A stretch of DNA of 64,000 nucleotides from a virus: IMG/VR virus record IMGVR_UViG_3300020463_000009, positions 32,001 through 96,000 of that record, one strand, 5' to 3'. This document shows, piece after piece, positions 41,465 to 59,239 of the stretch. Positions within the stretch are counted from its first letter, which is position 1, and every line of letters starts with the position of its first letter. Below the pieces are notes generated by a model. The model ran no database searches. It was given only the letters and a program-made list of their open reading frames with translations, and was not told where the DNA came from. Made by a program: the position numbers and the translations under genes.

Positions 41465-42763
41465 ATGACTTATTCGTGGAAGAAAGGTATGTCTATTGAC
41501 GACCAATGGCAAAGTTGGCAAGATAACAATCCAATAGATAAATTACCTGATATAGATACAGATACTTTAAAAGAGGCAGTAATAAAAGATTTATCTTATG
41601 TGTCTGCTATGGATGTAAAAGAATATACACTATATCAAAAATGGTGTGAAGTACACGACAAATATCCTACTGAAGAAGTCAATAGTTTCTTTGACGATAA
41701 ACCAGCATTAAAAAATCCTGACCAAGGGGCGCTCCTTGCTGAAATCAAAAACAACTTTTGGTTACCAGAAAACCAAGAAGAATACCTTGATTTAGAACCT
41801 GAATTATTATGGACAGATGGTGATGATATTAAATCTATAACAGGTAGTAAAATGCCTGCTATATGGAATGGTATGAGAACGTTCTTATCTACTATGAAAA
41901 ACAATAGTAATATTGGTAGAAATTTAAACTTTTTAATCAGAGATAAAAAATCAAAAAAATTACTTGGTGTTACCTGTATGTCTAGTGATTTCCTAGACCT
42001 TACACCTAGAGATAATTATATTGGTTGGGAAAGAGTTGCAAAAACTCAAAGAATGATTAATCATACTTGTATCGGGTCTACCATTGTACCAATTCAGCCT
42101 TTAGGGTATAACCTGGTAGGTGGCAAACTATTGGCACTTTTATGCCTATCTGATACGGTTGAGAAGACCTGGGAATACCAATACAAGGATAAACTAGTAG
42201 GGGTAACCACAACAAGTCTATATGGAAAAACCAAAGAAATACCATTATCACAATACGATAGATTAAAATACTGGAAGAAAATGGGTTGGACTGCTGGTAG
42301 TGTATCTTATGAGCCATTATTACCAACTAGAAAAATGATACAACAATGGTTAATGAAGAATCACACATACAAATACTTTGAATGGTATGTAGCAAAGAAA
42401 GACACAGGACAACCACATAAAAGAGACCATAGAAATAGAAGTCATACCTTTACATACAATCAATTAGGTATAGATAAGAAACTAATTAAGTCTGAACACG
42501 CTAGAGGTATCTATTTTGGTGAATTATATAACAATACTAAAGAATTTTTAAGAGAAGAAATCAAGGCAGACCAATTAGAAAGAAAATTTGATAATTCAGT
42601 AGAGGCCTTGACAGATATATGGAAGAACAAGTATGCTAAAAAGCGATTAGCCAGTTTAACTAAACAGAATAGAATATCTAAAGAAACCCATTTTTATGAT
42701 GACATTATCTATATGAATTGGGAAGATACTAAAAGTAAATATTTACCACAAGTAGGGAGATAA
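41465..42763 (+). CDS. DUF4338/DruA-like protein, paralogue 1
   Basis: GR.L.F...D......LG....S....L..RD.YIGW, P..P...L.GGKLLALL..S, TTTSLYG, SQY.RL, G.T.G motifs recalled from DUF4338 (DruA) proteins. Confidence 0.7.
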   Translation: MTYSWKKGMSIDDQWQSWQDNNPIDKLPDIDTDTLKEAVIKDLSYVSAMDVKEYTLYQKWCEVHDKYPTEEVNSFFDDKPALKNPDQGALLAEIKNNFWLPENQEEYLDLEPELLWTDGDDIKSITGSKMPAIWNGMRTFLSTMKNNSNIGRNLNFLIRDKKSKKLLGVTCMSSDFLDLTPRDNYIGWERVAKTQRMINHTCIGSTIVPIQPLGYNLVGGKLLALLCLSDTVEKTWEYQYKDKLVGVTTTSLYGKTKEIPLSQYDRLKYWKKMGWTAGSVSYEPLLPTRKMIQQWLMKNHTYKYFEWYVAKKDTGQPHKRDHRNRSHTFTYNQLGIDKKLIKSEHARGIYFGELYNNTKEFLREEIKADQLERKFDNSVEALTDIWKNKYAKKRLASLTKQNRISKETHFYDDIIYMNWEDTKSKYLPQVGR

Positions 42764-42766
42764 CCA

Positions 42767-43159
42767 ATGGTAGGACAACTAGAAAAAGAATTTGGCACTC
42801 AAACTAATGAAAGTCATAAATACAAAAGAGTAAGCGACCTTGATATGTACCAACAGGTCGCAAAACAAACGGCAATATATCCGAGAGAACAGGCCATTAT
42901 CTATCCAACATTAGGATTGACCGGTGAAGCAGGTGAAGTAGCCAACAAGGTCAAGAAAATAATAAGAGATGGAACAGATAAGACTAGTGAGGATAATGTT
43001 CAAAAGATATCCGCTGAAATTGGCGATTGCCTTTGGTATATCGCTGTATTGGCTGATGATATTGGCGTTAAGCTTTCCGACATTGCTAACAATAATTTAG
43101 ATAAACTCTATGATAGAGCGAATCGTGGGAAACTCTCGGGTTCCGGCGACAATCGGTAG
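42767..43159 (+). CDS. mazG: MazG-like NTP pyrophosphohydrolase
   Basis: YQ..A..TA.YP, LGL.GEAGEVA.KVKK, EIGD.LWY, N..KL..R..RG...GSGD.R. Confidence 0.88.
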   Translation: MVGQLEKEFGTQTNESHKYKRVSDLDMYQQVAKQTAIYPREQAIIYPTLGLTGEAGEVANKVKKIIRDGTDKTSEDNVQKISAEIGDCLWYIAVLADDIGVKLSDIANNNLDKLYDRANRGKLSGSGDNR

Positions 43160-43236
43160 CGAGAATCTATCAAAAAAGAACAATACCAGAACAAGATACA
43201 AGCGGAAAGCGTTATGGACCGTAGAAAAAATAACGC

Positions 43237-43265
43237 TTGACTTTTATGGAAAAGGCCTGTAGGAT
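43237..43265 (+). promoter_or_regulatory. sigma70-type early promoter
   Basis: TTGACT-17 nt-TAGGAT. Confidence 0.65.
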
Positions 43266-43276
43266 GGATCCATAAA

Positions 43277-45553
43277 ATGAAAAAGGACACTAACACTATG
43301 ATTAATCTTGATGTCAAAGGCTACCTTGCCAAACTGATTGCTTCAGAAAATATTATTATCCAACACAACAAAGTTTCAACGGCGTCCTTTGATGTCAAGA
43401 ATCGTGTATTAACATTACCTATATTTAAAGAACAAAAAGGTGATGTATATGATATGTTGATTGCTCACGAATGTGCTCACGCTTTGTTTACTCCTTATAA
43501 ACAATGGGAAGAAATTGCCTCTGATAATGAGTTAAGAGCATATGTTAATGTTCTTGAAGATACTAGAATTGATAAATTGATACAGAAAAAGTATCCTGGT
43601 GTAGTTAGAAACTATGAGAATGGTTTTGATATACTAGATAAAAAGAATTTCTTTGGTCTTGTTGGTAAAGATATCAATAAAGACTTAATGTTAATTGATA
43701 AAATTAATATTAGAAGTAAATCATTAAATAGATTACCATTCATATTTGCTCCTGATGATAAAAAATGGTTGGCTAAAGTTGACAGCATTGTTACCTTTGA
43801 TGACGCTGTTGCTTTGGCCAAAGAATTATTAGATTGGCAGAAAAAACAAATTGAGCAAATGAAAAAATTACCTGACTTTGATGAGTTATCTATTTCTAAA
43901 GTTTATGATTTATCAGATGAAGATGATGACTTTGAAGATGAATCAGATTCTTCAGGTTCAGATGTTGAACAAAATGATGATGACTCTGACGAAAAAAATG
44001 ATTTCAATAATTTTGGTGATGAAGAAGCAGATGATGAAAAAGACGCTACTGGTTCTCCTGATAAATCTGAAGAAACAGATGATAAAAAAGATGATGGTAA
44101 AGAAGCTACACATTACGGACCAGGTGCTGGTGGTGATTTTGACAATGGCAAATTACTTAAAGCGGTTACACAGGAAAGTTTTGATAAGAGAACAGATGAA
44201 TTATTAGATGATGAAGTAAAAGGTTTTACTTATGGTAATATGCCTGAACCTAATTTTAAAGACGCTTTAACTGACTATAAAAAATTCTTGACTACTTTTG
44301 AAAGTACAAAAGTTGAATCTAGAAAGTATGGTACAGATGTTGCCGCTTATGACAAATGGTTACATACTGAATATAAAAAGTTTCTTAAAGAGAATAAGAA
44401 AACGGTATCATATCTTGTAAAAGAATTTGAAATGAAAAAAGCTGCTACTGCTTATAAGAGAGCAAGTACAGATAAAACTGGTATTATTGACCCATTAAAA
44501 TTACCTTCTTATAAATTTTCAGATGACATATTTAAAAGATTGACTATTATACCTGATGGTAAAAACCACGGTATGATGATGTTGCTTGATTGGTCTGGTT
44601 CTATGAGTGATGTATTGAATCAAACCGTACATCAATTAATTAACTTGGTAGAATTTGTTAGAAGAGTTAATATACCTTTTGAGGTTTACTTCTTTACAAG
44701 TGAAAGAAAATATTTAAATCAAGACTCTGGTTATGATAAATCTTTTACTTATAAAACTAATGATTGGAAATTTGAAGACTTTAATTTAGTTAATGTTGCT
44801 AGCCATAAGATGACTAAAAAACAATTAGATTTATCTATGATGTATATGTTTCATATGGGTGATTATTATGATAGTAATTATGGTAGAAGCTATAGAGACT
44901 TTGATTATAACAAACCTAATGGTTATGGTATACCTAGAGAATTTTCACTTGGTAATACACCATTAAACGAAGCTTTAATATTTGTAAACAAATTGTTACC
45001 AATGTTTAAAAAGAAATATGGTATTGAAAAAATGACCTTGATTACACTTACAGATGGTGGTGCTAATGGTATGAGAGGTAAAATCCACGGTAGTGAAAGA
45101 GACTATGATTGGGGTACTAAAAAAGTTTTCAATATGAAAAAGAATAAAAGATTGATGAGCTCAGACTATGGTCAAGATTTAACTGGTATGTTATTAGATT
45201 ATATTTCAAAAGAATATGATACTAACGTTATTGGTTTCTATCTACTTAAAAGAGTTAGAAGATATGACCTAGAAAGATATGCTGATGGTAAAGATTACTA
45301 TGCTCGTGAAAAAGATTATGCTAGGCTTAGAAAGCAAATGACTAAAGAAAAAGCAGTTGATGTTGATAAGTTTGGTTATAGCAAATATTTCTTAATCAAT
45401 GGTAAAACTATGAAAGTTGAGAACTTTAGTTTACAAGAAGCTACGGTTAAGAAAGGAACTACTGGTGAATTAAAAAGATTATTTGCTGGTTCTATGAAAG
45501 AGCGAATCACTTCAAGAGTAGTTTTAAACAAATTCATACAGGAGGTTGCTTAA
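43277..45553 (+). CDS. Zincin-like plus vWA protein (CobT-like partner of the MoxR AAA+)
   Basis: AHECAHAL (HExxH), NVLED.RI, acidic linker, DWSGSM MIDAS, TPLN, LTDG. Confidence 0.85.
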   Translation: MKKDTNTMINLDVKGYLAKLIASENIIIQHNKVSTASFDVKNRVLTLPIFKEQKGDVYDMLIAHECAHALFTPYKQWEEIASDNELRAYVNVLEDTRIDKLIQKKYPGVVRNYENGFDILDKKNFFGLVGKDINKDLMLIDKINIRSKSLNRLPFIFAPDDKKWLAKVDSIVTFDDAVALAKELLDWQKKQIEQMKKLPDFDELSISKVYDLSDEDDDFEDESDSSGSDVEQNDDDSDEKNDFNNFGDEEADDEKDATGSPDKSEETDDKKDDGKEATHYGPGAGGDFDNGKLLKAVTQESFDKRTDELLDDEVKGFTYGNMPEPNFKDALTDYKKFLTTFESTKVESRKYGTDVAAYDKWLHTEYKKFLKENKKTVSYLVKEFEMKKAATAYKRASTDKTGIIDPLKLPSYKFSDDIFKRLTIIPDGKNHGMMMLLDWSGSMSDVLNQTVHQLINLVEFVRRVNIPFEVYFFTSERKYLNQDSGYDKSFTYKTNDWKFEDFNLVNVASHKMTKKQLDLSMMYMFHMGDYYDSNYGRSYRDFDYNKPNGYGIPREFSLGNTPLNEALIFVNKLLPMFKKKYGIEKMTLITLTDGGANGMRGKIHGSERDYDWGTKKVFNMKKNKRLMSSDYGQDLTGMLLDYISKEYDTNVIGFYLLKRVRRYDLERYADGKDYYAREKDYARLRKQMTKEKAVDVDKFGYSKYFLINGKTMKVENFSLQEATVKKGTTGELKRLFAGSMKERITSRVVLNKFIQEVA

Positions 45554-45594
45554 TGGGTTCCACAACCCTTACCTGGTCTCATATATTTTATGGG

Positions 45595-45623
45595 TTGCCA
45601 AAAGCGAATCAGTATGATAGGAT
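45595..45623 (+). promoter_or_regulatory. sigma70-type early promoter
   Basis: TTGCCA-17 nt-TAGGAT with extended TG. Confidence 0.65.
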
Positions 45624-45639
45624 ATACGTATAATTAATA

Positions 45640-46860
45640 ATGAAAGTGAAAGGACAATACACTATGTTAAACACTAAACAACAAGAGTTTGTAGACCACG
45701 CTGTTAAAAAGTTTGGTACAAACGAATTGACCGTTTCGCAACTTAAAGAAGCCAACAAAAAGTTTGGTTGTAAGTATGCGCCACAATGGTTGATTAAGAA
45801 TACTGACTATAAAGTCGGTAAATCTTTATTTAAATTACCTACTGAAAATGATTCAGTTGTTGAAAAAACTGGCGAGGCTGAAAAAGTTTTACCAGTACAG
45901 ACAACTAATACTGAAGCCGCTTTTGTGGTTTCATCTTTAGTCGGCAACATTGTTCCTCAAAAGGATCCTGTTTTCGTATCATTTGGTAATTATCCAGATT
46001 TAAAATCAATTGTAAAATCTAATATGTTTTATCCTGTTTTTATTACAGGTCTATCTGGTAACGGTAAAACTATGGGTGTAACCCAAGCTTGTGCCGAAGC
46101 TAGAAAAGAACTTATAAGAGTTAACATTACAATTGAAACAGATGAAGATGACCTTTTAGGTGGTTACAGACTTAAAGATGGTCAGACCGTTTGGCAAAAT
46201 GGTCCTGTTATTGAAGCGATGGAGAGAGGTGCATTATTACTTCTTGACGAAATTGACCTTGCTTCTAACAAGATTATGTGTTTACAACCGATACTTGAAG
46301 GTTCAGGTATCTATGTTAAGAAAATTAACAAGTTTGTAAAACCTGCTAATGGCTTCAATGTTGTTGCTACTGCCAATACTAAAGGTCAAGGTAGTGATGA
46401 CGGTAAGTTTATCGGTACTAATGTTCTTAACGAGGCGTTTTTGGAAAGATTTCCAATTACCTTTGAACAGAAATATCCTACTGCTAAGATTGAAGAAAAA
46501 ATCTTGGTTGGTACTCTTGCTAAGTCAGGTAAAAAAGACCAAGACTTTTGTAAGAAATTGGTAACTTGGGCTGATGTAATCAGAAAAACCTACTTTGATG
46601 GTGGTGTTGATGAGATTATATCAACTAGAAGATTGGTACATATCATACAAGCCTTTACAATCTTTAATAACAAAATTAAAGCAATTGAAGTTTGTACTAA
46701 CAGGTTTGATGATGATACAAAGAATTCGTTTATGGAGTTATACACCAAAGTTGACGCTGGTGCCTCTGCTGACCAAATAGCAGAACAGCAAAGACAAGCG
46801 GAAGTATCTTCTCAAACGAATGAGGAGGATGAATCCTCGGATGACGAAGACGTTATCTAA
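45640..46860 (+). CDS. MoxR/CobS-like AAA+ ATPase
   Basis: GLSGNGKT, ETDEDDLLGG, LLLDEID, ATANTKG.G, NEAFLERF, STRRL. Confidence 0.92.
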   Translation: MKVKGQYTMLNTKQQEFVDHAVKKFGTNELTVSQLKEANKKFGCKYAPQWLIKNTDYKVGKSLFKLPTENDSVVEKTGEAEKVLPVQTTNTEAAFVVSSLVGNIVPQKDPVFVSFGNYPDLKSIVKSNMFYPVFITGLSGNGKTMGVTQACAEARKELIRVNITIETDEDDLLGGYRLKDGQTVWQNGPVIEAMERGALLLLDEIDLASNKIMCLQPILEGSGIYVKKINKFVKPANGFNVVATANTKGQGSDDGKFIGTNVLNEAFLERFPITFEQKYPTAKIEEKILVGTLAKSGKKDQDFCKKLVTWADVIRKTYFDGGVDEIISTRRLVHIIQAFTIFNNKIKAIEVCTNRFDDDTKNSFMELYTKVDAGASADQIAEQQRQAEVSSQTNEEDESSDDEDVI

Positions 46861-46882
46861 ACTTTATCATAGTGTAAGTCCT

Positions 46883-46915
46883 TGGAGGCAGGTGTAGTGG
46901 CCTGCCTCCACTTTT
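46883..46915 (+). terminator. Hairpin terminator after the AAA+ gene
   Basis: TGGAGGCAGG-8 nt-CCTGCCTCCA perfect 10-bp stem followed by CTTTT. Confidence 0.75.
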
Positions 46916-46931
46916 ACACAGGAAAGAATTT

Positions 46932-47057
46932 ATGTTTGATATAGAACACGCTATTTTATTTTTGTTTATTTCAATACCATTTAGTGTATTGATAATGTAT
47001 ATAATATTAAGATGTATTAATGCAACAGATAAAGACAGATTGAAGGGAGGTAAATAG
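46932..47057 (+). CDS. Small single-pass membrane protein (41 aa)
   Basis: MFDIEHAILFLFISIPFSVLIMYIILRCINATDKDRLKGGK; AGGA RBS; stop abuts the rpsU start. Not in the ORF track. Confidence 0.55.
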   Translation: MFDIEHAILFLFISIPFSVLIMYIILRCINATDKDRLKGGK

Positions 47058-47267
47058 ATGACAATTACGGTTGAAGTAAGAAAAGGTAATTTAGAAAAAG
47101 CTATGCGAGTAATGAAGAAAAAACTTGCTAAAGAAGGCTTACTAAAGACTCTAAAACAGAAACAATACTATGAAAAACCTTCAGAAATTAAGCGTAGGAA
47201 GAAAAAAGAAGGTATCAAGAACTTCAAAAAGAAGATGAAAAAACTTGAACTTACAAGAGGTTACTAA
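47058..47267 (+). CDS. rpsU: Ribosomal protein bS21
   Basis: V.V...N.EKA.R..KKK...EG....LK...YYEKPSE..R..K; GGAGG RBS. Confidence 0.93.
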   Translation: MTITVEVRKGNLEKAMRVMKKKLAKEGLLKTLKQKQYYEKPSEIKRRKKKEGIKNFKKKMKKLELTRGY

Positions 47268-47304
47268 TTTCCCCGCCTGTGCCTAGATGATGATAAATAT
47301 AGAT

Positions 47305-47556
47305 GAGCGGGCTATTCGTAAGACCTGCTGGCGTGGAGAGGCGACCAGAGCCTGTTAAATGGATTAACGAACTGGTAGAGTTTGGTGGTTCTCTTCAAAA
47401 ACCACCAACGAATTATGAGATTAAGGTGTAGCGAGAGTGAACCTTAATGGTGGATTGTTTTAGCATTTGCGCTTAGTTTCGCACCACCTGTAAAAAAACA
47501 AACTAAAGCTGCTGTGCGATTTTGGTAGTTTACGCCACAAATATTAAAACTACCAC
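47305..47556 (+). ncRNA. Putative structured non-coding RNA with multiple hairpins and pseudoknots
   Basis: GC-enriched intergenic tract with perfect helices TTGGTGGTT/AACCACCAA, ATTAAGGT/ACCTTAAT, GGTGG/CCACC and TGGTAGTTT/AAACTACCA; GATAAATA late-like promoter at 47292. Confidence 0.65.
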
Positions 47557-47580
47557 TTGAAATATAGGAAATAATAACTA

Positions 47581-47615
47581 TATAAATAACTATGATACGC
47601 TCATAAGAGGTATCA
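47581..47615 (+). promoter_or_regulatory. Late promoter and 5' leader hairpin of hsp20
   Basis: TATAAATA at 47581-47588, then TGATAC-g-CTC-ataa-GAG-GTATCA hairpin; AAGGAGG RBS. Confidence 0.65.
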
Positions 47616-47648
47616 AATATTAACTTTGCTTAAAATAAGGAGGTTCTA

Positions 47649-48089
47649 ATGACCAATCACAAAGCAATTCATTCAATTTTTACTGGATTAAGACCGTTCA
47701 CGGTGGGGTTTGACGATATGTTCGACCATTTTGATGAGCTAACTACTCACTTACCAAATATGACGGCTAACAACTATCCACCATATAACATAGTAAAGAC
47801 TGGTTCTTTAACATATGATATAGAAGTGGCACTAGCAGGTTACGGTAAAAAAGACGTATCAGTTAATTACGAGGATAATGTCCTTAAAATTGATTCTGTA
47901 AAAGCTAAAGAAGAGAATAAAGTAGGTGTAATACATAAAGGTATTGCTAAAAGAAGTTTCTCTAAACACTTTACAATAGCAGATGATGTTGAAGTAAAAG
48001 GTGCTGAACTAAAAGATGGTCTTTTAAAAGTGTCTCTGGAAAAAATTATACCAGACCACAAAAAGGCTAAAACAATTACTATCAAGTAA
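47649..48089 (+). CDS. hsp20: Small heat-shock protein Hsp20 (IbpA-like)
   Basis: VGFD..F, NYPPYNI, IEVALAG, HKGIA.R.F...F..A..VEV..A.L.DGLL...L. Confidence 0.96.
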   Translation: MTNHKAIHSIFTGLRPFTVGFDDMFDHFDELTTHLPNMTANNYPPYNIVKTGSLTYDIEVALAGYGKKDVSVNYEDNVLKIDSVKAKEENKVGVIHKGIAKRSFSKHFTIADDVEVKGAELKDGLLKVSLEKIIPDHKKAKTITIK

Positions 48090-48100
48090 TAATTTAAGAG

Positions 48101-48144
48101 AGGCGTCCCAGCATTGACAAAGGGACGCCTTTCGTGTATAAATA
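48101..48144 (+). terminator. Hairpin terminator after hsp20, overlapping a promoter
   Basis: AGGCGTCCC/GGGACGCCT stem with TTGACA in the loop; TATAAATA at 48137-48144. Confidence 0.7.
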
Positions 48145-48225
48145 GGATTATATAAACTAAAACAAAAAATTTTGTTGTTTGTATAAAAGAAATTGTAAGG
48201 CGACAAAGGTCGCAGAAAGTAAATT

Positions 48226-49443: not shown

Positions 49444-49450
49444 TCCACCA

Positions 49451-49486: not shown

Positions 49487-49560
49487 GCGGCTATCGTATA
49501 AAAGTATTACGGCGGGTTACCAACTCGCAGACGTAGGAGCGTTACCTACTAGCCGCTCCA
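49487..49560 (+). tRNA. Non-canonical tRNA-Gly, anticodon ACC
   Basis: Acceptor GCGGCTA/TAGCCGC with T73 and encoded CCA; anticodon arm GCGGG-TTACCAA-CTCGC; T arm GTAGG-AGCGTTA-CCTAC; D arm GTAT-AAAAGT-ATTAC. Confidence 0.88.
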
Positions 49561-51206: not shown

Positions 51207-51207
51207 A

Positions 51208-51360
51208 ATGATATTAGCATTAAGAAAAGTAATTGTAAAGATAAGAATGGCTTATGCAGATATAAGAGGTCACCACGGTAAGAGGTGGAACTATGAGCCA
51301 GGTGATTATTATATGGGCAGAGCGAATGTACGAACTAAAAGATTATCTAAAAGCGATTAA
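51208..51360 (+). CDS. Small basic hypothetical protein (50 aa)
   Basis: MILALRKVIVKIRMAYADIRGHHGKRWNYEPGDYYMGRANVRTKRLSKSD; fills the gp44-gp62 gap. Not in the ORF track. Confidence 0.55.
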   Translation: MILALRKVIVKIRMAYADIRGHHGKRWNYEPGDYYMGRANVRTKRLSKSD

Positions 51361-51721: not shown

Positions 51722-52164
51722 GTGAAGATACTATTAGTTGGTCACCAGAGCAAATGCTTGAGGTCACCATAAAACAACCAGATGACTTCTTAAAAGTCAG
51801 AGAAACCCTTACAAGAATTGGTGTAGCAAGTAGAAAAGATAAAACTCTTTTTCAATCTTGTCATATACTACACAAACAAGGGAAATATTACATAACACAC
51901 TTCAAAGAACTATTTGCTTTAGATGGTAAAAAATCAACATTGGTTGAAAACGATATACAGAGAAGAAACACAATTGCTTTATTACTACAAGACTGGAATT
52001 TAATTGATATTGTTGATAAATCTAAAGTAGAAAATAAAGCGCCATTATCACAGATTAAAGTTTTACCTTATAAAGAAAAAAAAGAGTGGACATTAAATGC
52101 TAAATATAATATAGGTAAAAAACCCGAAACAAAAGATGGCGAAAATGCAGGTCAGCAAGTTTAA
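51718..52164 (+). CDS. regA: Translational repressor RegA
   Basis: PDDFLKVRETLTRIGVAS, QSCHILHKQG.Y.I.HFKELFALDG, RRN.I..LL..W.L. Confidence 0.97.
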   Translation: MSEDTISWSPEQMLEVTIKQPDDFLKVRETLTRIGVASRKDKTLFQSCHILHKQGKYYITHFKELFALDGKKSTLVENDIQRRNTIALLLQDWNLIDIVDKSKVENKAPLSQIKVLPYKEKKEWTLNAKYNIGKKPETKDGENAGQQV

Positions 52165-53530
52165 AGATTACATAACGGAAGAAAAAGAAGGTAAACCCTT
52201 TTTAAGGTTACTCATTATTACAGATGAACCTGAAGAGGCAAAAACTTTTCATACTGCCGATAGATTACAGGAAGAATGTGATAAGTTAGGCTATCCACAT
52301 TATCTATTTAAACTTACTGGTGGTTATACAAGTTATGAGAATGGTATTCGTAAGTTTCATAACAAAGATGATAAAAAAGGTTTTGAAGTAGGCGCAATGA
52401 CCGTTGCTATTGTTCGTGGTAGTATTACACGAAAAGATAGTTGGATGGACTTTGTATCTATATTAGAAAGAGCAAACGCAACTCTCGTAAATCCTAGAAC
52501 TACAATTAATATGTGTGCTGATAAGTATAGAACAGCATTAAGACTTGCAGATTATGGTTTGACGCAACCTATGACCAAGTTAATAAATGACCCCGAAAAA
52601 TCAAATGAAATAGTTGACGAGGCAAAAATTAAGTTTCCTTTAATTATGAAAACATTAAGAGGTAGTAAAGGTGTTGGTGTATTGTTTATTGATAGTCCAA
52701 AAGGATTAGATTCTATTGTTCAATTAATACACAAACAAGATGAAGATACAGATTTATTAATACAAGAATATATTAAAACAGAATATGATGTAAGAGTACA
52801 TATTTTAGGTGGTAAATTTTTAGCGGCTATGAAACGACCTGTAATCGAAGGAGATTTTAGGTCAAATGTTTCTCAAGGTTCTAAACCAGAAAATATTAAA
52901 TTAACAGAATTAGAAATAGAACATTGTTTATTGGCTTCAAAAGCAGTTGGTGGTTATTGGACTGCTGTTGATTTTATACCTAGTAAGAATAGAGAAAAAG
53001 AACCACCTTATTTTCTTGAAGTAAACTCTTCACCTGGTACAGAGGGTATTGAAGACGCTACTAAAAAGAACATTGCAAAAGAAGTTATACAACATTTTGC
53101 CAATGGAGAGAACAGATATTCTGTCCCGACAGAATGTGGTTTTAAGGAGATTTTAACCATAAAACCGTTTGGCGAATTAATTTCAAAATTTGATACGGGT
53201 AATTCAGGAATGCCAGTTATTCATTCAGATAAAATGAAAGTTGATGGTAAAAAAATTACTTGGTCATTATTAGGTAAAACAATCACTAGTGATATTGTAC
53301 GTAAAGAAGAAATATCAGTTGGTGGTTTAAGAGACTATGACGAAGATAGATATGTGGTAAAATTAGATGTTGAATTTGCAGGTGGCCATTATAAAGATGT
53401 AGAATTTACCATAGATAATAGAGAAGATAGAACTCCTATCTTACTGGACCGTGCATTTATGAAGAGATTAAACGTTATGGTCAATCCACAAAGAAAATAC
53501 GTTATAACAACCAAATACAGCATTGACTAA
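52136..53530 (+). CDS. RimK-family ATP-grasp ligase fused to a retropepsin-like (RimB-type) protease
   Basis: ADK, FP.I.K...GS.G.GV, LIQEYI...DVRV, FRSN...G, VD, EVNSSPG; C-terminal KFDTGN ... ILL.R.FM......VNP. Confidence 0.85.
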   Translation: MAKMQVSKFKDYITEEKEGKPFLRLLIITDEPEEAKTFHTADRLQEECDKLGYPHYLFKLTGGYTSYENGIRKFHNKDDKKGFEVGAMTVAIVRGSITRKDSWMDFVSILERANATLVNPRTTINMCADKYRTALRLADYGLTQPMTKLINDPEKSNEIVDEAKIKFPLIMKTLRGSKGVGVLFIDSPKGLDSIVQLIHKQDEDTDLLIQEYIKTEYDVRVHILGGKFLAAMKRPVIEGDFRSNVSQGSKPENIKLTELEIEHCLLASKAVGGYWTAVDFIPSKNREKEPPYFLEVNSSPGTEGIEDATKKNIAKEVIQHFANGENRYSVPTECGFKEILTIKPFGELISKFDTGNSGMPVIHSDKMKVDGKKITWSLLGKTITSDIVRKEEISVGGLRDYDEDRYVVKLDVEFAGGHYKDVEFTIDNREDRTPILLDRAFMKRLNVMVNPQRKYVITTKYSID

Positions 53531-53551
53531 TTGAAGTCTTTGTGATAGGAT
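53523..53551 (+). promoter_or_regulatory. sigma70-type promoter
   Basis: TTGACT-17 nt-TAGGAT with extended TG. Confidence 0.65.
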
Positions 53552-53557
53552 TATAGA

Positions 53558-53872
53558 ATGAAAAATATTAAAATAATGAGATTAGTTACCGGTGAAGATA
53601 TTATAGGCAATATATCTGAATCTCAAGGTTTAATAACAATCAAAAAAGCTTTTGTAATAATTCCAATGCAGGCAACTCCAGGAAAACCTGTTCAGTTGGT
53701 ATTATCACCTTGGCAACCTTATACAGATGATAAGGAGATTACAATTGATGATAGTAAAGTTATCACAATTACTAGTCCAAAAGATGATATTATTAAATCT
53801 TATGAAAGTCATACAAGCGAGATAATAACTCCATCAGGATTAATTACAGAAACTAAACTACCTAAACTTTAA
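53558..53872 (+). CDS. Conserved T4-like hypothetical protein (Sm-like)
   Basis: IK..RL.TGEDII... PW.PY pattern, similar to 36307..36762. Confidence 0.55.
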   Translation: MKNIKIMRLVTGEDIIGNISESQGLITIKKAFVIIPMQATPGKPVQLVLSPWQPYTDDKEITIDDSKVITITSPKDDIIKSYESHTSEIITPSGLITETKLPKL

Positions 53873-53873
53873 A

Positions 53874-54203
53874 GTGGTAACCGTATATTTTATTAGGGCT
53901 GATAATGAAAAAGTCCGAGTAGAAGTATCAGAGGGTACTACCTTAATGCAGGCTGCTAAAGAGGCAAACATAAGAGAAATACCTGCTGATTGTGGTGGTA
54001 GTTGTGCTTGTGCTACGTGTCATATATATTTAAGTAATGCTTGGACACATATTCTACCTATTAAACAAAATAGTTTAGAACAATCATTATTAGAATATGA
54101 ACGTGGTTATAAAGAAGGTGTGAGTAGATTAAGTTGTCAGATACAATTGACAAAAGAATTAAATAATTTGACGGTGAGGTTAAGAGATAATGAACTTTTA
54201 TAA
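53874..54203 (+). CDS. fdx: [2Fe-2S] ferredoxin (adrenodoxin/ISC type)
   Basis: CGGSCACATCH ... SRLSCQI. Confidence 0.93.
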   Translation: MVTVYFIRADNEKVRVEVSEGTTLMQAAKEANIREIPADCGGSCACATCHIYLSNAWTHILPIKQNSLEQSLLEYERGYKEGVSRLSCQIQLTKELNNLTVRLRDNELL

Positions 54204-56673
54204 GAATGTAATTGAACACAAAGGCAAACTTCTTATTCGTGGTGTATTAAACGGAAAAGATTACAAAGATAAAATAGATTTTGGTCCTACTCTCTACGCC
54301 TTATCACAGGAAAAATCAGAATTTAAAAATCTACAAGGTCAGTATTTAAAACCTATAACATTTAAAGATATTAGGTCTACTCGTCAATTCAAAAAAGATT
54401 ATGGAGCACAATCACCATTATTTGGTTTAGAACGTTATCATTATCAATACATTGGCAAAAATTATCCAGAGGCCATACAATGGTCAAAAGAACATATCAA
54501 AATATTCACATTAGATATAGAAACAACCTGTGAAAATGGTTTTCCAGATGTAGAAAATCCTATTGAAGAGTTGTTATGTATCACGGTAAAAAATCAATCT
54601 AATAAACAAATATTAACTTGGGGTGTTGGCGACTTTCATACAGATAGAACAGACGTTACCTATGTCAGATGTAGAGACGAAAAACAATTAATGTTTGAGT
54701 TTATGAAATTCTGGTTGAAAAATTATCCTGATGTTATCACAGGCTGGAATACAAAATTCTTTGACTTACCTTATTTAATGAATAGAATTAAATTGATTGC
54801 AGGTGATAAAGTTGCAAACAGAATGTCGCCTTGGAACTTAATCAATCGTGATGAGATTGTTGTAAGAGGCAGACCACAAACCGTTTATCAACTATTTGGT
54901 ATTGTAATGTTAGACTATCTTGATTTGTACAAATGGTTTATACCAACAAGACAAGAGAGTTATAGATTAGATTTTATTGGCGAACTAGAACTAGGCCAAA
55001 AGAAACACGAAAACCCTTTTGAAACATTTAAAGATTTCTATACTAAAGACTTTCAAAAGTTTGTAGATTACAATATTCAAGATGTAGAAATTGTTGATTC
55101 ATTAGAAGATAAGTTAGGTCTTATTGACTTATCATTAACCGTAGCATATGAATCTAAAGTAAACTATGATGATATATTTTCGCAAGTAAGAGTATGGGAC
55201 ACATTGATTGCAAACCATTTAATGAAAAAGAATATATGTGTACCACCAAGAGAAGAACATAGTAAAGAAACAAAATACGAAGGTGCTTACGTAAAAGAAC
55301 CTCAACTAGGCGGCCATAATTGGATTGTGTCGTTTGATATAAACTCACTATATCCACATATTATTATTCAATATAATATTTCACCGGAAAAAATTATCGG
55401 TTCGTCTAGTAAAGGTGTATCTGTAAATAAAATGTTATCACATACACCACTTGACTTTTTAAAAACAGAGGGTGCTTGTTTAACACCTAATGGTGCAATG
55501 TTTAAAAATGATAGTCAAGGGTTTCTACCTGAAATGATGGAAACAATGTACAATGAACGTGTAATTTACAAGAAAAGAATGTTAAAGGCTAAAAAAGAAT
55601 ATCAAAAAACAAAAGACCCTAAACTTGTAAAAGAAATTTCACGTTGTCATAATATTCAATGGGCAAGAAAGATTGCCTTAAACTCAGCTTATGGTGCAGT
55701 AGGTAATCAATACTTTAGATACTATGATGTAAGACAGGCAAGTGGTATTACAACTGCTGGTCAATTTATTATTCGTTTCATTGAAGAAAAAATGAATACA
55801 TATCTAAATCAAATATTACAAACTAAAGATAAGGTTGATTATATTGTGGCGTCTGATACAGATTCAATTTATGTTTGTTTAGATAAATTGGTAGAGAAGA
55901 CTTGTAAAGATAAAACAAATGACCAGATTACAGATTTTATTGGTAAAGTTTGTGATAATAAATTAGAACCATATATTGAAAAATGTTTTGAAGAACTAGC
56001 TGACTATTCAAATGCTTTTAAAAATGCAATGGTAATGAAACGAGAAGTTATTGCCAATAAAGGTATTTGGGTTGCAAAGAAAAGATATATGTTAAATGTT
56101 ATTGATGAAGAAGGCATTAGACTTGCTGACCCTAAACTTAAACTTATGGGTATTGAGGCAGTTAAATCATCAACACCACAGGTTTGTAGAGGTAAAATTA
56201 AAGACGCAATCAAAATCATTATGGGTAAAAGTGAAAATGAACTACACGATTTTGTTGCAAACTTTAAAAAAGAATTTAAAGAATTGCCACCAGAGGCAAT
56301 TGCTTTTCCTAGAAGTTGTAATAACTTGAGGAAGTACCGTGATAACAATAGTATTTTTATCAAAGGTACTCCAATTCACGTCAAAGGTGCGTTGATATAT
56401 AATCATCAAATAAAAGAGTTTGGTTTACAAAATAAGTTTCCTTACATACAAGAAGGCGACAAGATTAAGTTTATCAAATTAATAGAGGCAAATCCTTTTA
56501 AGTTTGATGTTATAAGTTATATAACTAGTTTGCCTACGGAGTTTAAATTAAAACAATACGTAGATTATGAAACACAATTTGAGAAGACCTTTTTAGACCC
56601 TATGAGATTTATTCTTCAGGCTATAGGTTGGGAACACGAACCAAAGGCAACGTTGGAGGCATTTTTTGGATGA
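54190..56673 (+). CDS. gp43: Family B DNA polymerase gp43
   Basis: DIET exonuclease I, TGWN..FFD.PY, SFDINSLYP, K..LNSAYG, SDTDS, KKRY. Confidence 0.98.
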   Translation: MNFYKNVIEHKGKLLIRGVLNGKDYKDKIDFGPTLYALSQEKSEFKNLQGQYLKPITFKDIRSTRQFKKDYGAQSPLFGLERYHYQYIGKNYPEAIQWSKEHIKIFTLDIETTCENGFPDVENPIEELLCITVKNQSNKQILTWGVGDFHTDRTDVTYVRCRDEKQLMFEFMKFWLKNYPDVITGWNTKFFDLPYLMNRIKLIAGDKVANRMSPWNLINRDEIVVRGRPQTVYQLFGIVMLDYLDLYKWFIPTRQESYRLDFIGELELGQKKHENPFETFKDFYTKDFQKFVDYNIQDVEIVDSLEDKLGLIDLSLTVAYESKVNYDDIFSQVRVWDTLIANHLMKKNICVPPREEHSKETKYEGAYVKEPQLGGHNWIVSFDINSLYPHIIIQYNISPEKIIGSSSKGVSVNKMLSHTPLDFLKTEGACLTPNGAMFKNDSQGFLPEMMETMYNERVIYKKRMLKAKKEYQKTKDPKLVKEISRCHNIQWARKIALNSAYGAVGNQYFRYYDVRQASGITTAGQFIIRFIEEKMNTYLNQILQTKDKVDYIVASDTDSIYVCLDKLVEKTCKDKTNDQITDFIGKVCDNKLEPYIEKCFEELADYSNAFKNAMVMKREVIANKGIWVAKKRYMLNVIDEEGIRLADPKLKLMGIEAVKSSTPQVCRGKIKDAIKIIMGKSENELHDFVANFKKEFKELPPEAIAFPRSCNNLRKYRDNNSIFIKGTPIHVKGALIYNHQIKEFGLQNKFPYIQEGDKIKFIKLIEANPFKFDVISYITSLPTEFKLKQYVDYETQFEKTFLDPMRFILQAIGWEHEPKATLEAFFG

Positions 56674-57155
56674 AAAAATTTAAGAATAATATAGAAGACT
56701 TTTTTAAATGGGTAAAAGGTACAGAGTTAGTTGAACTTGATGACATTGATGTATCTGAAGACCCGGTAAGACCTGAATTAACATTAGGTTTTAGAATTAC
56801 TAACGGCAGAAAAATATTTGGTCTAAAATATAATGATGAGATAGAGGCAATAGTTTGTGTTGCATTATGTCCTGAAGTACCACACACGGTAAGAGAAATG
56901 GATTATATGTCTCAAGCGGCCAATCAAGAAGACCAAAGAGGCGAAATAGTTGTTGCATACACCGTATGGTCAAGAAAAAGAGGTGCAGGCAAAGAGATAA
57001 TTAATAAGTTGGCTGAATGGGCAAAACAAAATAATTTTCAAAGAGTAGTTACCTTATCACCATTAACACCAATGGCTACACATTTTCATATAAAGAATGG
57101 TGCAAAACAAATTAAAGTAAGTGAAGATACTCAAAATTTTGAATATAAACTATGA
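56670..57155 (+). CDS. GNAT-fold (malonyl-CoA decarboxylase-like) protein
   Basis: VAYTVWSRKRGAGKEII (motif A-like), VTLSP, FHIKNGA; likely ATG at 56670 overlapping the gp43 stop. Confidence 0.55.
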   Translation: MKKFKNNIEDFFKWVKGTELVELDDIDVSEDPVRPELTLGFRITNGRKIFGLKYNDEIEAIVCVALCPEVPHTVREMDYMSQAANQEDQRGEIVVAYTVWSRKRGAGKEIINKLAEWAKQNNFQRVVTLSPLTPMATHFHIKNGAKQIKVSEDTQNFEYKL

Positions 57156-57301
57156 CAACATACGACATAATAATATTTTATCTAGTTTTATTTTGGTCTT
57201 TTAAGATAGGTACATTTTTTGCCTATTCAAATATAAAAATATGGCAGTTTTTATTCTTATGTTTTTTACTTAAAATGGTAGGTATGGCTTATGTTTCCTA
57301 A
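57152..57301 (+). CDS. Small hydrophobic membrane protein (49 aa)
   Basis: MTTYDIIIFYLVLFWSFKIG...; coupled to both neighbours. Not in the ORF track. Confidence 0.5.
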   Translation: MTTYDIIIFYLVLFWSFKIGTFFAYSNIKIWQFLFLCFLLKMVGMAYVS

Positions 57302-57821
57302 TAAAAAATATGGTGTGATATATGCAGACCCACCTTGGTATTTTAAATCAAGGTCAAAGAAAGGTGAGGGTAGAAATCCTAATCAACACTATAATTGTAT
57401 GGAGTTATTAGATATTTGTAATCTACCTGTAAAAAATATATCTGCTGACAATTCAGTTTTATTAATGTGGGTTATAGACCCTATGTTAGACCTTGCATTT
57501 GATGTAATAGAAGCCTGGGGTTTTCAATACAAGACCGTAGGTTTTACTTGGGCGAAAACAAATAAAACTAATATGGGTATGTTTACCGGTTTAGGTTACT
57601 GGACTAGAGGCAATCCAGAAATGTGTTTACTTGCAACAAAAGGTAAACCAAAAAGAATTAACAAAGATGTAAAACAATTAATAGTTTCACAAAGAGAAGA
57701 ACACTCAAAGAAACCTTTATTACATAAAGAAATAGAAAGACTTGTACCTGGCCCCTACATTGAATTGTTTGCAAGAAAAAAACCTTATGATAATTGGGAT
57801 TATTGGGGTAATGAAGTATGA
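57291..57821 (+). CDS. MT-A70 family adenine methyltransferase
   Basis: IYADPPW, HY..M, L.MW, WGF.YKT..F.W.K, G.G.WTR.N.E.CL, EHSKKP, ELFAR, WGNE. Confidence 0.93.
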   Translation: MFPNKKYGVIYADPPWYFKSRSKKGEGRNPNQHYNCMELLDICNLPVKNISADNSVLLMWVIDPMLDLAFDVIEAWGFQYKTVGFTWAKTNKTNMGMFTGLGYWTRGNPEMCLLATKGKPKRINKDVKQLIVSQREEHSKKPLLHKEIERLVPGPYIELFARKKPYDNWDYWGNEV

Positions 57822-58063
57822 AAATTAGATATTATAAAAGAATAGATGGCTGGCGATGGCTAGGTTTTCTATTAGCAATGATAGGTGCTTTTATATTATC
57901 TAATGCAGATGTTCAAACACAATGGATGGGGTGGGCAATTGCCACAATGTCTTGTAGTATTTGGATTTATATGGGAATAAAAGATAAAGATATACCAAGA
58001 GCGCTAATGGAACTTATGTATTTACTATTAGCATTAAGGGCTATATATAATTGGGTTATATGA
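57818..58063 (+). CDS. Small multi-pass membrane protein
   Basis: Three hydrophobic segments (WLGFLLAMIGAFIL, WMGWAIATMSCSIWIY, LMELMYLLLALRAIYNW). Confidence 0.6.
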   Translation: MKIRYYKRIDGWRWLGFLLAMIGAFILSNADVQTQWMGWAIATMSCSIWIYMGIKDKDIPRALMELMYLLLALRAIYNWVI

Positions 58064-58158
58064 TTATAGATTTATTACTGGTTGCCTTATTCATAAAAAT
58101 GTGTTATATTTTACCCTTATTTTTATTATGGAAATGGAATAATGAAGACCCTAACTAA
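58060..58158 (+). CDS. Tiny hydrophobic protein (32 aa)
   Basis: MIIDLLLVALFIKMCYILPLFLLWKWNNEDPN; ATGA overlap with the upstream stop. Confidence 0.35.
   Translation: MIIDLLLVALFIKMCYILPLFLLWKWNNEDPN
58082..58110 (+). promoter_or_regulatory. sigma70-type promoter
   Basis: TTGCCT-17 nt-TATATT with extended TG, upstream of 58142. Confidence 0.55.
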
Positions 58159-59239
58159 AGAAGAAGCACTACATTGTGCTAACGTATTTACAAATTATTT
58201 TGGCCAGTTTAGTCGTATAGACCAGTATATGCGAGACCAAAAAATGGCACAGATTGAAACTATACCAGCACCTCTTCCTGGTATGGGTTTAGATTCAGAT
58301 ATGTTTGATGAATTTGATATGTCACCAGAGGTTATGGATTTAGAAGTTGTTGAATTAGATAATGATACTTGGGACACTTGTATTAATATGATATCAAGTC
58401 ATAGTAATATGGTTTCTATACCAGGTAAAACATTAAAACTGGCAGTAAAAGAAAAAAATACAGGTAAGTTTGTAGGTTTTATGAGATTTGGTTCACCTGT
58501 AATTAATATGAAACCTAGAAATACTTTATTAGGTAATGTACCTGAACTTACATCATTTAATAAAACTTCTATTATGGGTTTTGTTATAGTGCCTACACAA
58601 CCATTTGGTTTTAATTATCTAGGTGGTAAATTGTTAGCCGCCTTATGTTGTTCTCACGAAGTCAGAGAAAAACTAAACAAAAAATATAATATGAATTTAG
58701 TAATGTTTGAGACTACTAGTTTATATGGCAATTCAAAGTCAGCAAGTCAATATGATGGTATGAAACCTATGTTAAGATATAAAGGCTTAACTGATAGTGA
58801 TTTTATACCTATGATACACGGCAAACCATTTAAAGATTTACAAAATTATGTTGAAAGTAGAACTGGTCATTTAGTACCAGAAAATGCCTCTAGTAGAAAA
58901 CTTAAATTAACAAATGCAATTATTGGTTTAATTAAAAGGTCAATAGATGGTGATGATTTAAAAACTTTTAATACTACAATACTTAATGCTAAAAAATTAA
59001 CTGAACAAAAAAGATATTATGTATCTAATTATGGTATCGAAAATTATATTGATATAGTAAATGGTAAAACAGATAAGATTGTTAGAGCACCTAACTATGA
59101 AAGATTCTACGATAACGAACTTATAGAATGGTGGCGTAAACTTGCTACTAAAAGATTTTATAAATTAAAAGAAGATGGTCGTTTAAGAAATAATTTAGAG
59201 ATATGGACAAGAGACAGCGAGATAGACATAATAAGATAG
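58142..59239 (+). CDS. DUF4338/DruA-like protein, paralogue 2
   Basis: PGKTLKLAV....GK.VGF..FGSP.....PRN, IVPTQPFGFNYLGGKLLA..CCS, FETTSLYG, SQYDG.K, G.T; clearly homologous to 41465..42763. Confidence 0.7.
   Translation: MKTLTKEEALHCANVFTNYFGQFSRIDQYMRDQKMAQIETIPAPLPGMGLDSDMFDEFDMSPEVMDLEVVELDNDTWDTCINMISSHSNMVSIPGKTLKLAVKEKNTGKFVGFMRFGSPVINMKPRNTLLGNVPELTSFNKTSIMGFVIVPTQPFGFNYLGGKLLAALCCSHEVREKLNKKYNMNLVMFETTSLYGNSKSASQYDGMKPMLRYKGLTDSDFIPMIHGKPFKDLQNYVESRTGHLVPENASSRKLKLTNAIIGLIKRSIDGDDLKTFNTTILNAKKLTEQKRYYVSNYGIENYIDIVNGKTDKIVRAPNYERFYDNELIEWWRKLATKRFYKLKEDGRLRNNLEIWTRDSEIDIIR

What the first reader, a model, noticed from the sequence alone, without database searches (positions are those of the whole stretch)
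41465..59239. Candidate tRNA-dependent DNA hypermodification system: two DUF4338/DruA-like paralogues, the odd tRNA-Gly, a GNAT and an MT-A70 methylase
Seen: 41465..42763 and 58142..59239 share G(R/K).L, PR, IVP.QP.G.N..GGKLLA.LC.S, TTSLYG, SQYD..K and G.T blocks. Each has its own sigma70 promoter. The second sits between gp43 and uvsX with a GNAT-like gene and a DPPW methylase; the first is followed by MazG. Established: DUF4338 is the DruA family of Druantia defence loci with unknown biochemistry, and phage Mu Mom is a GNAT-fold adenine hypermodifier. I recall reports that Mom uses glycyl-tRNA but cannot verify this here. Inference: the GG.LL loop is a GNAT motif-A equivalent, and these proteins are Mom-like DNA aminoacyl transferases fed by the dedicated tRNA-Gly, perhaps with two specificities or as a heterodimer. 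This would give DruA a self-marking role and define a new anti-restriction system.
Basis: partly seen in the sequence, partly recalled or inferred. Interest (0 to 1): 0.85.

Follow-up and report, generated by a model that had tools for sequence, protein, structure and literature searches.

The report
Two Mom-like DruA acyltransferases in pelagiphage
A T4-like phage of the ocean bacterium Pelagibacter carries two diverged copies of a DruA-family enzyme whose predicted fold is closest to phage Mu's DNA-modifying enzyme Mom, plus an oddly built glycine tRNA. This makes a tRNA-fed DNA modification plausible and testable, but nothing here proves it.

Summary
41465-42763 (432 aa) and 58142-59239 (365 aa) are true paralogues (31% identity over 162 aa, E 6e-21). 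Both exceed Pfam's DruA/DUF4338 cut-off. Both sit in the replication/recombination module of a T4-like pelagimyophage.

New here:
- A related DruA-like clade lies beside bona fide Mom genes in 33 of 80 uncultured phage loci.
- The window's tRNA-Gly(ACC) belongs to a covarying pelagiphage tRNA-Gly family. It has G55, no GG in the D-loop, intact GlyRS identity elements and a wobble base that varies (ACC/UCC/GCC) without tracking codon use. Staphylococcal cell-wall tRNA-Gly also carries G55.

Against:
- No sequence similarity to Mom, and no Mom catalytic residues.
- A conserved glycine-rich loop that fits acyl-CoA binding.
- The paralogues occur singly elsewhere.
- The small GNAT and MT-A70 are not conserved partners.
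- The tRNA lies 6.7-8.6 kb from either gene.

Verdict: real Mom-like GNAT enzymes, probably acting on DNA. The tRNA link is a live hypothesis (about 0.2).

The parts
41465..42763 (+). DruA1: 432-aa DruA/DUF4338 GNAT-fold protein. The core spans about residues 105-365, with an N-terminal helical region and a C-terminal basic helix.
58142..59239 (+). DruA2: 365-aa paralogue of the phrog_19197 type, lying between gp43 and uvsX.
49487..49560 (+). tRNA-Gly(ACC) with encoded CCA, D-loop AAAAGUA (no GG) and T-loop AGCGUUA (G55). It lies just upstream of gp45. Candidate glycine donor; the link is unproven.
   Evidence: Rfam tRNA 45.2 bits. The fold has z -3.2. Nine family members pair at 97.4% of cells, 15 of 21 pairs show compensatory changes, and 0 of 500 shuffles reach this.
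57291..57821 (+). MT-A70 family DNA adenine methyltransferase (motif DPPW). A frequent but not universal upstream neighbour of DruA2.
   Evidence: Pfam MT-A70 4.1e-26 and phrog_359. It lies directly upstream of DruA2 in most related IMG/VR contigs. It is absent in the HTVC008M-like sublineage and in cyanophages.
56628..57155 (+). Small canonical GNAT. The probable ATG at 56670 overlaps the gp43 stop. It is an accessory gene, not a conserved member of any system.
   Evidence: Acetyltransf_1 1.7e-4 with the motif RGAGK. It is found in only about 11 of 80 related loci.
42767..43159 (+). MazG-like pyrophosphatase downstream of DruA1. Context only.
   Evidence: Pfam MazG 8e-9 and phrog_229. Present in Mosig but absent at this position in HTVC008M.

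Best explanation
Both genes encode intact enzymes of a virus-specific branch of the DruA (DUF4338) GNAT-fold family.

Each has a single GNAT core with three additions: a long beta3-beta4 loop, a three-helix insertion between beta6 and beta7, and a basic C-terminal helix. Among solved structures this architecture is most like phage Mu Mom.

I infer that they transfer an acyl or aminoacyl group onto phage DNA after replication, as a counter-restriction mark. I also infer that the two paralogues differ in target or context and do not form an obligate pair.

Shown: paralogy, family membership, GNAT fold, Mom as nearest structure, placement in the replication module, and the co-location of a related DruA-like clade with true Mom genes in other phages.

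Inferred: DNA as the acceptor, catalytic activity, and the anti-restriction purpose.

Unresolved: the donor. I put acyl-CoA at about 0.45 and aminoacyl-tRNA at about 0.3.
For: - Fold: high-confidence models. Mom 8BV8 is the top of 48,161 PDB representatives for both paralogues independently, with the longest aligned stretch (165 and 173 of 202 residues).
- Foldseek against PDB returns only GNATs among its listed hits. BFVD lists a Salmonella phage Mom at rank 11.
- Literature: the 51%-identical orthologue in cyanophage S-SCSM2R was already called structurally Mom-like (PMC12801897).
- Genomic position: always inside the replication genes. In pelagiphages the sites are gp46...DruA1 and gp43-DruA2-uvsX. 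In three cyanophages the site is gp44-DruA-gp62.
- DNA link: ParB_N-DruA fusions exist, and DndF fusions are reported in PMC10853773.
- Co-location with Mom: 33 of 80 loci of a third DruA-like clade carry Pfam Mom genes (E 1e-43 to 1e-48) within 1.3-8 kb, in several different gene orders, often with a weakly GT4-like protein (E 3.6e-4, below Pfam's cut-off). The reverse search anchored on Mom found DruA-like genes in 33 of 80 loci.
- Integrity: both paralogues keep all invariant family residues.
Against: - Mom leads ordinary acetyl-CoA GNATs by only 0.5-0.9 Z, which the tool treats as a tie.
- hhalign of the DruA profiles against Mu Mom or a 30-sequence Mom family profile finds nothing.
- The Pfam Mom model does not hit either protein or the genome.
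- Mom's essential R111, S124, D149 and R151 have no evident counterparts.
- Phages that already have Mom also keep DruA-like genes, so the two are not simple equivalents.
- No DNA modification has been measured for any phage carrying these genes.
- Sitting in the replication module is also compatible with a protein target.
Confidence: 0.45

Rival explanations
1. The DruA-like enzymes take glycine from the phage's own elbow-remodelled tRNA-Gly. That tRNA is kept out of translation. The enzymes put the glycine on a DNA base, as Mom does.
For: - Precedent: Mom uses Gly-tRNA-Gly on dsDNA (PMC13219725).
- tRNA family: members occur in the window, Mosig, HTVC008M and seven IMG/VR contigs. All keep G1-C72, C2-G71, G3-C70, U73, C35 and C36 plus an encoded CCA. 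All have G55-C56 and no GG in the D-loop.
- Parallel: staphylococcal non-proteogenic tRNA-Gly has TGC/TGT instead of TTC at the same place and feeds GNAT-fold Fem transferases (PMC7826273).
- Wobble base: it varies (ACC/UCC/GCC), while contigs with the UCC form still use 77-78% GGT.
- Contrast: Mosig's other three tRNAs are canonical.
- Adjacency: in the unrelated contig L175 a tRNA-Gly(ACC) lies 50 nt upstream of a DruA-like gene.
- Candidate consumer: DruA1 is the one DruA-type GNAT found in the window and in both tRNA-bearing isolates. The isolates' full gene sets were not screened for other GNATs.
Against: - The tRNA lies 6.7 and 8.6 kb from the two genes and heads the gp45 operon.
- GGT is 74% of glycine codons in the window, and ACC is its exact complement, so a translational role fits.
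- The L175 tRNA has a normal elbow.
- Cyanophages with DruA2-type genes have only ordinary tRNA-Gly(UCC).
- Every pelagimyophage contig that reaches far enough has both features, so co-occurrence cannot be separated from ancestry.
- The conserved loop QP.G.N..GGK looks like a phosphate-binding motif A, which Mom lacks.
Confidence: 0.2
2. The proteins are ordinary acyl-CoA-dependent acetyltransferases. Their target is a protein or small molecule, for example a replisome or host-takeover target. The tRNA-Gly is simply a translational or anti-defence tRNA.
For: - Most GNATs use acyl-CoA.
- The invariant glycine-rich beta4/alpha3 loop with a lysine (Q153-P-x-G156...G161-G162-K163) sits where CoA pyrophosphate binds.
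- GGT codon dominance matches the ACC anticodon.
Against: - The ParB_N and DndF fusions, the Druantia membership and the co-location with Mom genes all point to nucleic acid.
- The beta6-beta7 helical insertion and the basic C-terminal helix are not features of small-molecule GNATs.
- G55 and the missing GG in the tRNA are hard to explain by codon supply.
Confidence: 0.25
3. The enzymes act on tRNA rather than DNA. They would acetylate host Gly-tRNA as the TacT/AtaT toxins do, shutting off the host. The phage's remodelled tRNA-Gly would escape and keep GGT-rich phage genes translated.
For: - TacT is a GNAT that acetylates Gly-tRNA-Gly (cited in PMC13219725).
- The phage has its own structurally distinct tRNA-Gly and an extreme GGT bias.
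Against: - There is no specific similarity to the toxin GNATs beyond the shared fold.
- It does not explain the ParB fusions or the co-location with Mom.
- The UCC and GCC variants argue against a codon-specific takeover.
Confidence: 0.06
4. The proteins are non-catalytic mimics of the defence protein DruA and serve to jam Druantia-type immunity.
For: They are homologous to a defence-system component. Phages are known to carry decoys of host defence parts.
Against: - All invariant residues are kept in both paralogues across hundreds of diverged representatives.
- The genes sit in a conserved replication-module position.
- Two paralogues are maintained.
Confidence: 0.04

Closest known systems
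DruA (DUF4338, PF14236) of Druantia type I defence loci
   Same: Significant Pfam and PADLOC matches over the GNAT core. The same conserved loop and beta5 motifs are present.
   Different: There is no DruB-E operon; the genes sit among phage replication genes. The N-terminal part of the Pfam profile is not matched. The phage proteins form virus-dominated clusters. DruA itself has no known biochemistry in the papers I could search.
Phage Mu Mom (PF25680; PDB 8BV8), a Gly-tRNA-dependent N6-adenine modifier
   Same: Best structural match for both paralogues. Both are single GNAT domains with a helical insertion late in the fold and a long beta3-beta4 loop. Both are phage-encoded. True Mom genes neighbour a related DruA-like clade.
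   Different: No detectable sequence or profile similarity. R111, S124, D149 and R151 are not recognisable. DruA-likes are 120-190 residues longer and have a glycine-rich beta4/alpha3 loop. Neither donor nor acceptor is known.
Fem transferases with staphylococcal non-proteogenic tRNA-Gly
   Different: I recall Fem proteins as tandem GNAT domains with a coiled-coil that act on lipid II (not checked here). The phage proteins have one GNAT domain. No phage peptidoglycan role is suggested.
Cyanophage 'methylcarbamoylase mom' annotation (S-SCSM2R ORF152) and the Phold DruA-like proteins
   Same: These are orthologues of DruA2 (48-51% identity). They were already noted as Mom-like (PMC12801897) or DruA-like (bioRxiv 10.1101/2025.08.05.668817).
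   Different: Those reports note a single gene, with no paralogue, no tRNA, no Mom co-location and no experiment. The Mom annotation overstates membership.

Membership tests
DruA / DUF4338 (PF14236) | Match to the family HMM above the curated cut-off | tested here: met
   74.4 and 39.6 bits against a cut-off of 27. PADLOC DruA models at 3.9e-19 and 3.8e-9.
Druantia type I system | DruA encoded together with DruB-DruE (a large helicase operon) | tested here: not met
   The flanking genes are gp46, deformylase, MazG, peptidase, gp43, MT-A70 and UvsX. None is a Druantia component.
GNAT superfamily | Mixed alpha/beta GNAT fold (beta1-alpha1-alpha2-beta2-4-alpha3-beta5-alpha4-beta6-7) | tested here: met
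GNAT superfamily | Motif A (Q/R-x-x-G-x-G/A) that binds acyl-CoA pyrophosphate | tested here: inconclusive
   An invariant Q-P-x-G-x-N...G-G-K loop lies at the beta4/alpha3 junction. The position is right but the spacing is not canonical. The neighbouring small GNAT has the canonical RGAGK.
Mom family (PF25680) | Match to the family HMM or profile | tested here: not met
   A Pfam scan at E <= 1 lists only DruA. No Mom match in the 109-kb genome record. hhalign probability is 0.1-0.2%.
Mom family (PF25680) | Essential residues R111, S124, D149 and R151 | tested here: inconclusive
   No sequence alignment could be obtained. By secondary-structure position the DruA residues would be hydrophobic, G162/K163, S193 and Y195, which are different chemistry. 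No residue-level structural alignment was available.
Mom family (PF25680) | GNAT core with an essential helical (HTH-like) insertion near the C-terminal strands | tested here: inconclusive
   DruA2 has helices 227-284 between strands 212-216 and 291-295. The Mom alignment spans this region, with 165 of 202 residues aligned. Equivalence of the two insertions was not checked residue by residue.
Mom family (PF25680) | Uses Gly-tRNA-Gly to modify adenine in dsDNA | not testable with these tools
   Biochemical. The precedent is in PMC13219725.
Fem / aminoacyl-tRNA transferases | Tandem GNAT domains | tested here: not met
   There is one GNAT core per protein. In the DruA2 model FemA (400 residues) aligns over 146 residues, consistent with a single domain. 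That Fem proteins are tandem GNATs is from my own knowledge, not checked here.
Non-proteogenic tRNA-Gly (staphylococcal type) | G at position 55 (TGC/TGT instead of TTC), so no pseudouridine 55 | tested here: met
   G55-C56 is invariant in nine pelagiphage tRNA-Gly sequences. The feature is defined in PMC7826273.
Non-proteogenic tRNA-Gly (staphylococcal type) | Weak binding to EF-Tu and the ribosome; preferred by a dedicated transferase | not testable with these tools
   The 51:63 pair is always A:U or U:A, which from my own knowledge favours weak EF-Tu binding.

The most novel reading that the evidence does not exclude
Marine T4-like phages run a tRNA-dependent DNA hypermodification pathway. 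In it, DruA-family GNATs, which are distinct from Mom, draw glycine from a phage-encoded tRNA-Gly. That tRNA has a rebuilt elbow (G55, no G18-G19) which keeps it out of translation. This would be the first virus-encoded non-proteogenic tRNA. It would also give the DruA component of Druantia its first biochemical activity.
Probability: 0.2. Interest if true: 0.9.

Novelty: new variant of a known kind. Interest (0 to 1): 0.62.

Why it matters
- DruA/DUF4338 is a widespread family. This search found 726 representatives at 50% identity and thousands of marine variants. It has no known activity, either in Druantia defence or in phages.
- Pelagibacter and Synechococcus myophages are among the most abundant viruses in the sea. 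Their DNA chemistry is largely unmeasured.
- If these enzymes modify DNA, they define a second GNAT route to hypermodified phage DNA next to Mom, and they point to what DruA does in bacterial immunity.
- The tRNA-Gly family with G55 and a drifting wobble base is of interest in its own right. It is a candidate tRNA built for something other than decoding.
- Cultured phages exist that carry one or both paralogues (HTVC008M, Mosig, S-PRM1, S-SM2, S-CAM9), so the question can be tested directly.

Tried and rejected
- Sequence searches of both proteins and of the family profile against PDB sequences gave nothing.
- hhalign of the DruA profiles against Mu Mom alone, and against a profile of Mu Mom plus 29 marine Mom homologues, gave no signal.
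- IMG/VR relatives of Mu Mom itself were all at least 85% identical and useless for a profile.
- ARAGORN misses the window tRNA and four of its relatives. A purpose-built covariance model found them.
- blastn of the tRNA against phage genomes finds it only in Mosig and HTVC008M.
- Obligate heterodimer: rejected, because the paralogues occur singly. One contig (L162) does have two DruA-like genes in tandem.
- Small GNAT and MT-A70 as system members: rejected as conserved partners.
- Codon supply as the full explanation of the tRNA: weakened, because contigs with the UCC variant still use 77-78% GGT.
- No cultured phage carries both the third DruA clade and the marine Mom type.
A viral-contig scan seeded with them returned only unfused DruA-like genes.
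- The literature holds no biochemical study of DruA.


Full report
**What the window is.** The window is part of a 109-kb IMG/VR virus record. Its closest cultured relatives are Pelagibacter phage Mosig EXVC030M (81% nucleotide identity over the DruA1 region) and HTVC008M. Both are T4-like myophages.

**The observation.**
- ORFs 41465-42763 (P0001, DruA1, 432 aa) and 58142-59239 (P0002, DruA2, 365 aa) align at 31% identity over 162 residues, E 6e-21.
- Both exceed Pfam's DruA (PF14236) cut-off and match the PADLOC DruA models. DruA2 is a full-length member of phrog_19197.
- Neighbours are as described. One set is gp46, peptide deformylase, DruA1, MazG, peptidase and a CobS-like ATPase. The other is gp43, a small canonical GNAT, MT-A70 (DPPW), an 81-aa ORF, DruA2 and UvsX.
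- Promoter-like sites precede both genes, but at a rate no higher than in shuffled sequence.

**Distribution.**
- Both proteins are very abundant in marine metagenomes. More than 6,300 and 3,500 clusters at 90% identity pass E 1e-3. An exhaustive search finds 726 representatives at 50% identity. The nearest Atlas clusters are 91-98% viral.
- HTVC008M has both paralogues, Mosig has only DruA1, and 25 Synechococcus phage records have only the DruA2 type. An obligate heterodimer is therefore unlikely.
- The position is always inside the replication genes. In pelagiphages DruA2 lies between gp43 and uvsX. In S-SCSM2R, S-PRM1 and S-SM2 the gene lies between gp44 and gp62.
- MT-A70 lies directly upstream of DruA2 in most related IMG/VR contigs. 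It is absent from HTVC008M, from an HTVC008M-like sublineage and from the cyanophages. The small GNAT occurs in about 11 of 80 loci. Neither is a conserved partner.

**Fold.**
- AlphaFold2 with alignments of 46 and 41 diverse homologues gave mean pLDDT 92.2 and 91.3.
- Each model has one GNAT core. It carries a 25-residue beta3-beta4 insertion, a three-helix insertion between the last strands (DruA2 residues 227-284) and a long basic C-terminal helix.
- Foldseek against PDB returned only GNATs among its listed hits, at E about 1e-3.
- The margin is below the 1-Z tie limit. Even so, Mom comes first for two proteins that share only 31% identity, and it has the longest aligned stretch in the DruA2 list.
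- BFVD shows homologues in giant viruses (E 1e-8 to 1e-16) and a Salmonella phage Mom at rank 11.

**Literature.**
- PMC10853773 already classes DUF4338 as a GNAT domain and reports fusions to DndF.
- The Phold preprint notes DruA-like proteins in six Synechococcus phages.
- PMC12801897 annotates the S-SCSM2R orthologue as 'methylcarbamoylase mom' on structural grounds.
- PMC13219725 shows that Mom transfers glycine from Gly-tRNA-Gly to N6 of adenine in dsDNA. R111, S124, D149, R151 and an HTH-like insertion are essential.
- I found no biochemical study of DruA itself.

**Limits of the Mom resemblance.**
- The Pfam Mom model matches neither protein nor anything in the genome record.
- hhalign of the DruA profiles against Mu Mom, or against a profile of Mu Mom plus 29 marine homologues, gives probabilities of 0.1-0.2%.
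- Marine Mom homologues keep the Mom signature residues H-Y-S, ELTR, N-x-E-S and SYAD...IYQATN. The DruA family instead conserves S118, P-R, Q153-P-x-G156, G161-G162-K163-L164, T-T-S193-L-Y-G196, S-Q-Y204, W331 and R338.
- By secondary-structure position, GGK opens helix alpha3, where Mom has S124 and ordinary GNATs bind CoA pyrophosphate. TTSLYG ends beta5, where Mom has D149 and R151. This is my reading, not a computed superposition.
- The glycine-rich loop leans towards an acyl-CoA donor. The fold neighbour leans towards aminoacyl-tRNA. I cannot decide between them.

**New context evidence.**
- Four representatives fuse a ParB_N domain to the DruA domain.
- A viral-contig scan seeded with these fusions returned 80 loci of a third DruA-like clade, about 35% identical to DruA1.
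- I clustered their neighbours and annotated them. In 33 loci, bona fide Mom family genes (PF25680, E 1e-43 to 1e-48; BLASTP to Mu Mom E 1e-17) lie within 1.3-8 kb, often as a tandem pair.
- Gene orders include Mom-Mom-(GT4-like)-DNA polymerase-clamp-DruA-gp44, polymerase-Mom-clamp-DruA and DruA-Mom. The GT4-like assignment is weak (Glyco_transf_4, 21 bits against a cut-off of 28.5).
- A reverse scan anchored on these Mom genes found DruA-like genes in 33 of 80 loci, including the order Mom-Mom-DruA-polymerase. One Mom lineage (L307-L320) lacks DruA.
- So DruA-like genes keep company with proven DNA hypermodification genes among replisome genes. The same data show that DruA is not a simple substitute for Mom, because these phages keep both.

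**The tRNA.**
- 49487-49560 folds as a cloverleaf and scores 45.2 bits with Rfam tRNA.
- It has anticodon ACC, an encoded CCA, D-loop AAAAGUA and T-loop AGCGUUA.
- Homologues occur in Mosig (annotated there as a protein) and in HTVC008M, where it is the only tRNA.
- A covariance model built here found further members that ARAGORN had missed.
- Nine sequences pair at 97.4% of cells, with compensatory changes in 15 of 21 pairs. No shuffle out of 500 and no slid register comes near this.
- Invariant features are G1-C72, C2-G71, G3-C70, U73, C35, C36 and G55-C56, and none of the nine has GG in the D-loop. From my own knowledge, the first six are the bacterial GlyRS identity set.
- The wobble base varies: ACC in four, UCC in three, GCC in the two aligned here (a third GCC copy, in L075, is identical to L067).
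- GGT is 74% of glycine codons in the window, which fits ACC. However, contigs with the UCC form use 77-78% GGT and only 8-9% GGA. The wobble base therefore does not track codon use.
- Staphylococcal non-proteogenic tRNA-Gly, which feeds the GNAT-fold Fem transferases and binds EF-Tu and ribosomes poorly, has TGC/TGT instead of TTC at the same T-loop positions (PMC7826273).
- Mosig's other tRNAs are canonical.
- In the unrelated contig L175, a tRNA-Gly(ACC) with a normal elbow lies 50 nt upstream of a DruA-like gene.

**Weighing the tRNA link.**
- The tRNA heads the gp45 operon, 6.7 kb and 8.6 kb from the two genes.
- Cyanophages with DruA2-type genes carry only ordinary tRNA-Gly(UCC).
- Every pelagimyophage contig long enough to judge has both features, so co-occurrence cannot be separated from common descent.
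- The parallel with staphylococci is striking but indirect.
- I put the dedicated-tRNA model at about 0.2.

**Verdict.** The genes are real, intact, Mom-like members of the DruA GNAT family. They most likely act on DNA (0.45), with the donor unresolved. The family assignment and the Mom-like annotation are already in the literature.
- the second paralogue;
- the co-location with true Mom genes;
- the G55 tRNA-Gly family.

Noticed in passing
window 49487-49560; L085 16831-16903; L083 10998-11070; L061 1140-1212; L035 2294-2366; L040 789-861; L023 1480-1552; L046 1137-1211; L067 42-116; L075 204-276: A family of pelagimyophage tRNA-Gly genes with G55-C56, no GG in the D-loop, an encoded CCA and a wobble base that varies (ACC, UCC, GCC). 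ARAGORN misses five of them: the window copy and those in L061, L035, L040 and L023. In Mosig the gene is annotated as a 96-nt hypothetical protein (Mosig_000011).
   Followed up: yes
L226 699-2235 and 7953-9140; L201, L204, L178 and others: Uncultured marine T4-like phages carry tandem bona fide Mom genes, a weakly GT4-like protein (below Pfam's cut-off) and a DruA-like gene, all interleaved with DNA polymerase, clamp and clamp loader. This looks like a multi-enzyme DNA modification cluster inside the replisome operon.
   Followed up: partly
proteins P0334, P0349, P0353, P0363: Proteins of 588-628 aa fuse an N-terminal ParB_N domain to a DruA domain.
   Followed up: partly
L162 8025-10281: Two DruA-like genes lie in tandem (394 and 361 aa). 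This was the only such case among the 80 loci.
   Followed up: no
window, all + strand ORFs of 120 aa or more: Glycine codons are 74% GGT. Other four-codon families split roughly evenly between NNT and NNA. The skew holds across related contigs whatever the tRNA-Gly anticodon.
   Followed up: partly
window 56670-56673: The probable ATG of the small GNAT overlaps the gp43 stop codon (ATGA), which suggests translational coupling of an accessory acetyltransferase to the DNA polymerase gene.
   Followed up: no
BFVD hits A0A3G4ZXG3, A0A5K0UAJ3, A0A3G4ZRA1: DruA-like folds occur in giant viruses (Faunusvirus, Yasminevirus, Dasosvirus), in two cases as part of proteins of about 1,150-1,260 aa.
   Followed up: no
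L175 1901-1973 and 2023-3216: A structurally canonical tRNA-Gly with the rare ACC anticodon sits 50 nt upstream of a DruA-like gene, in a contig unrelated to the window's lineage.
   Followed up: partly
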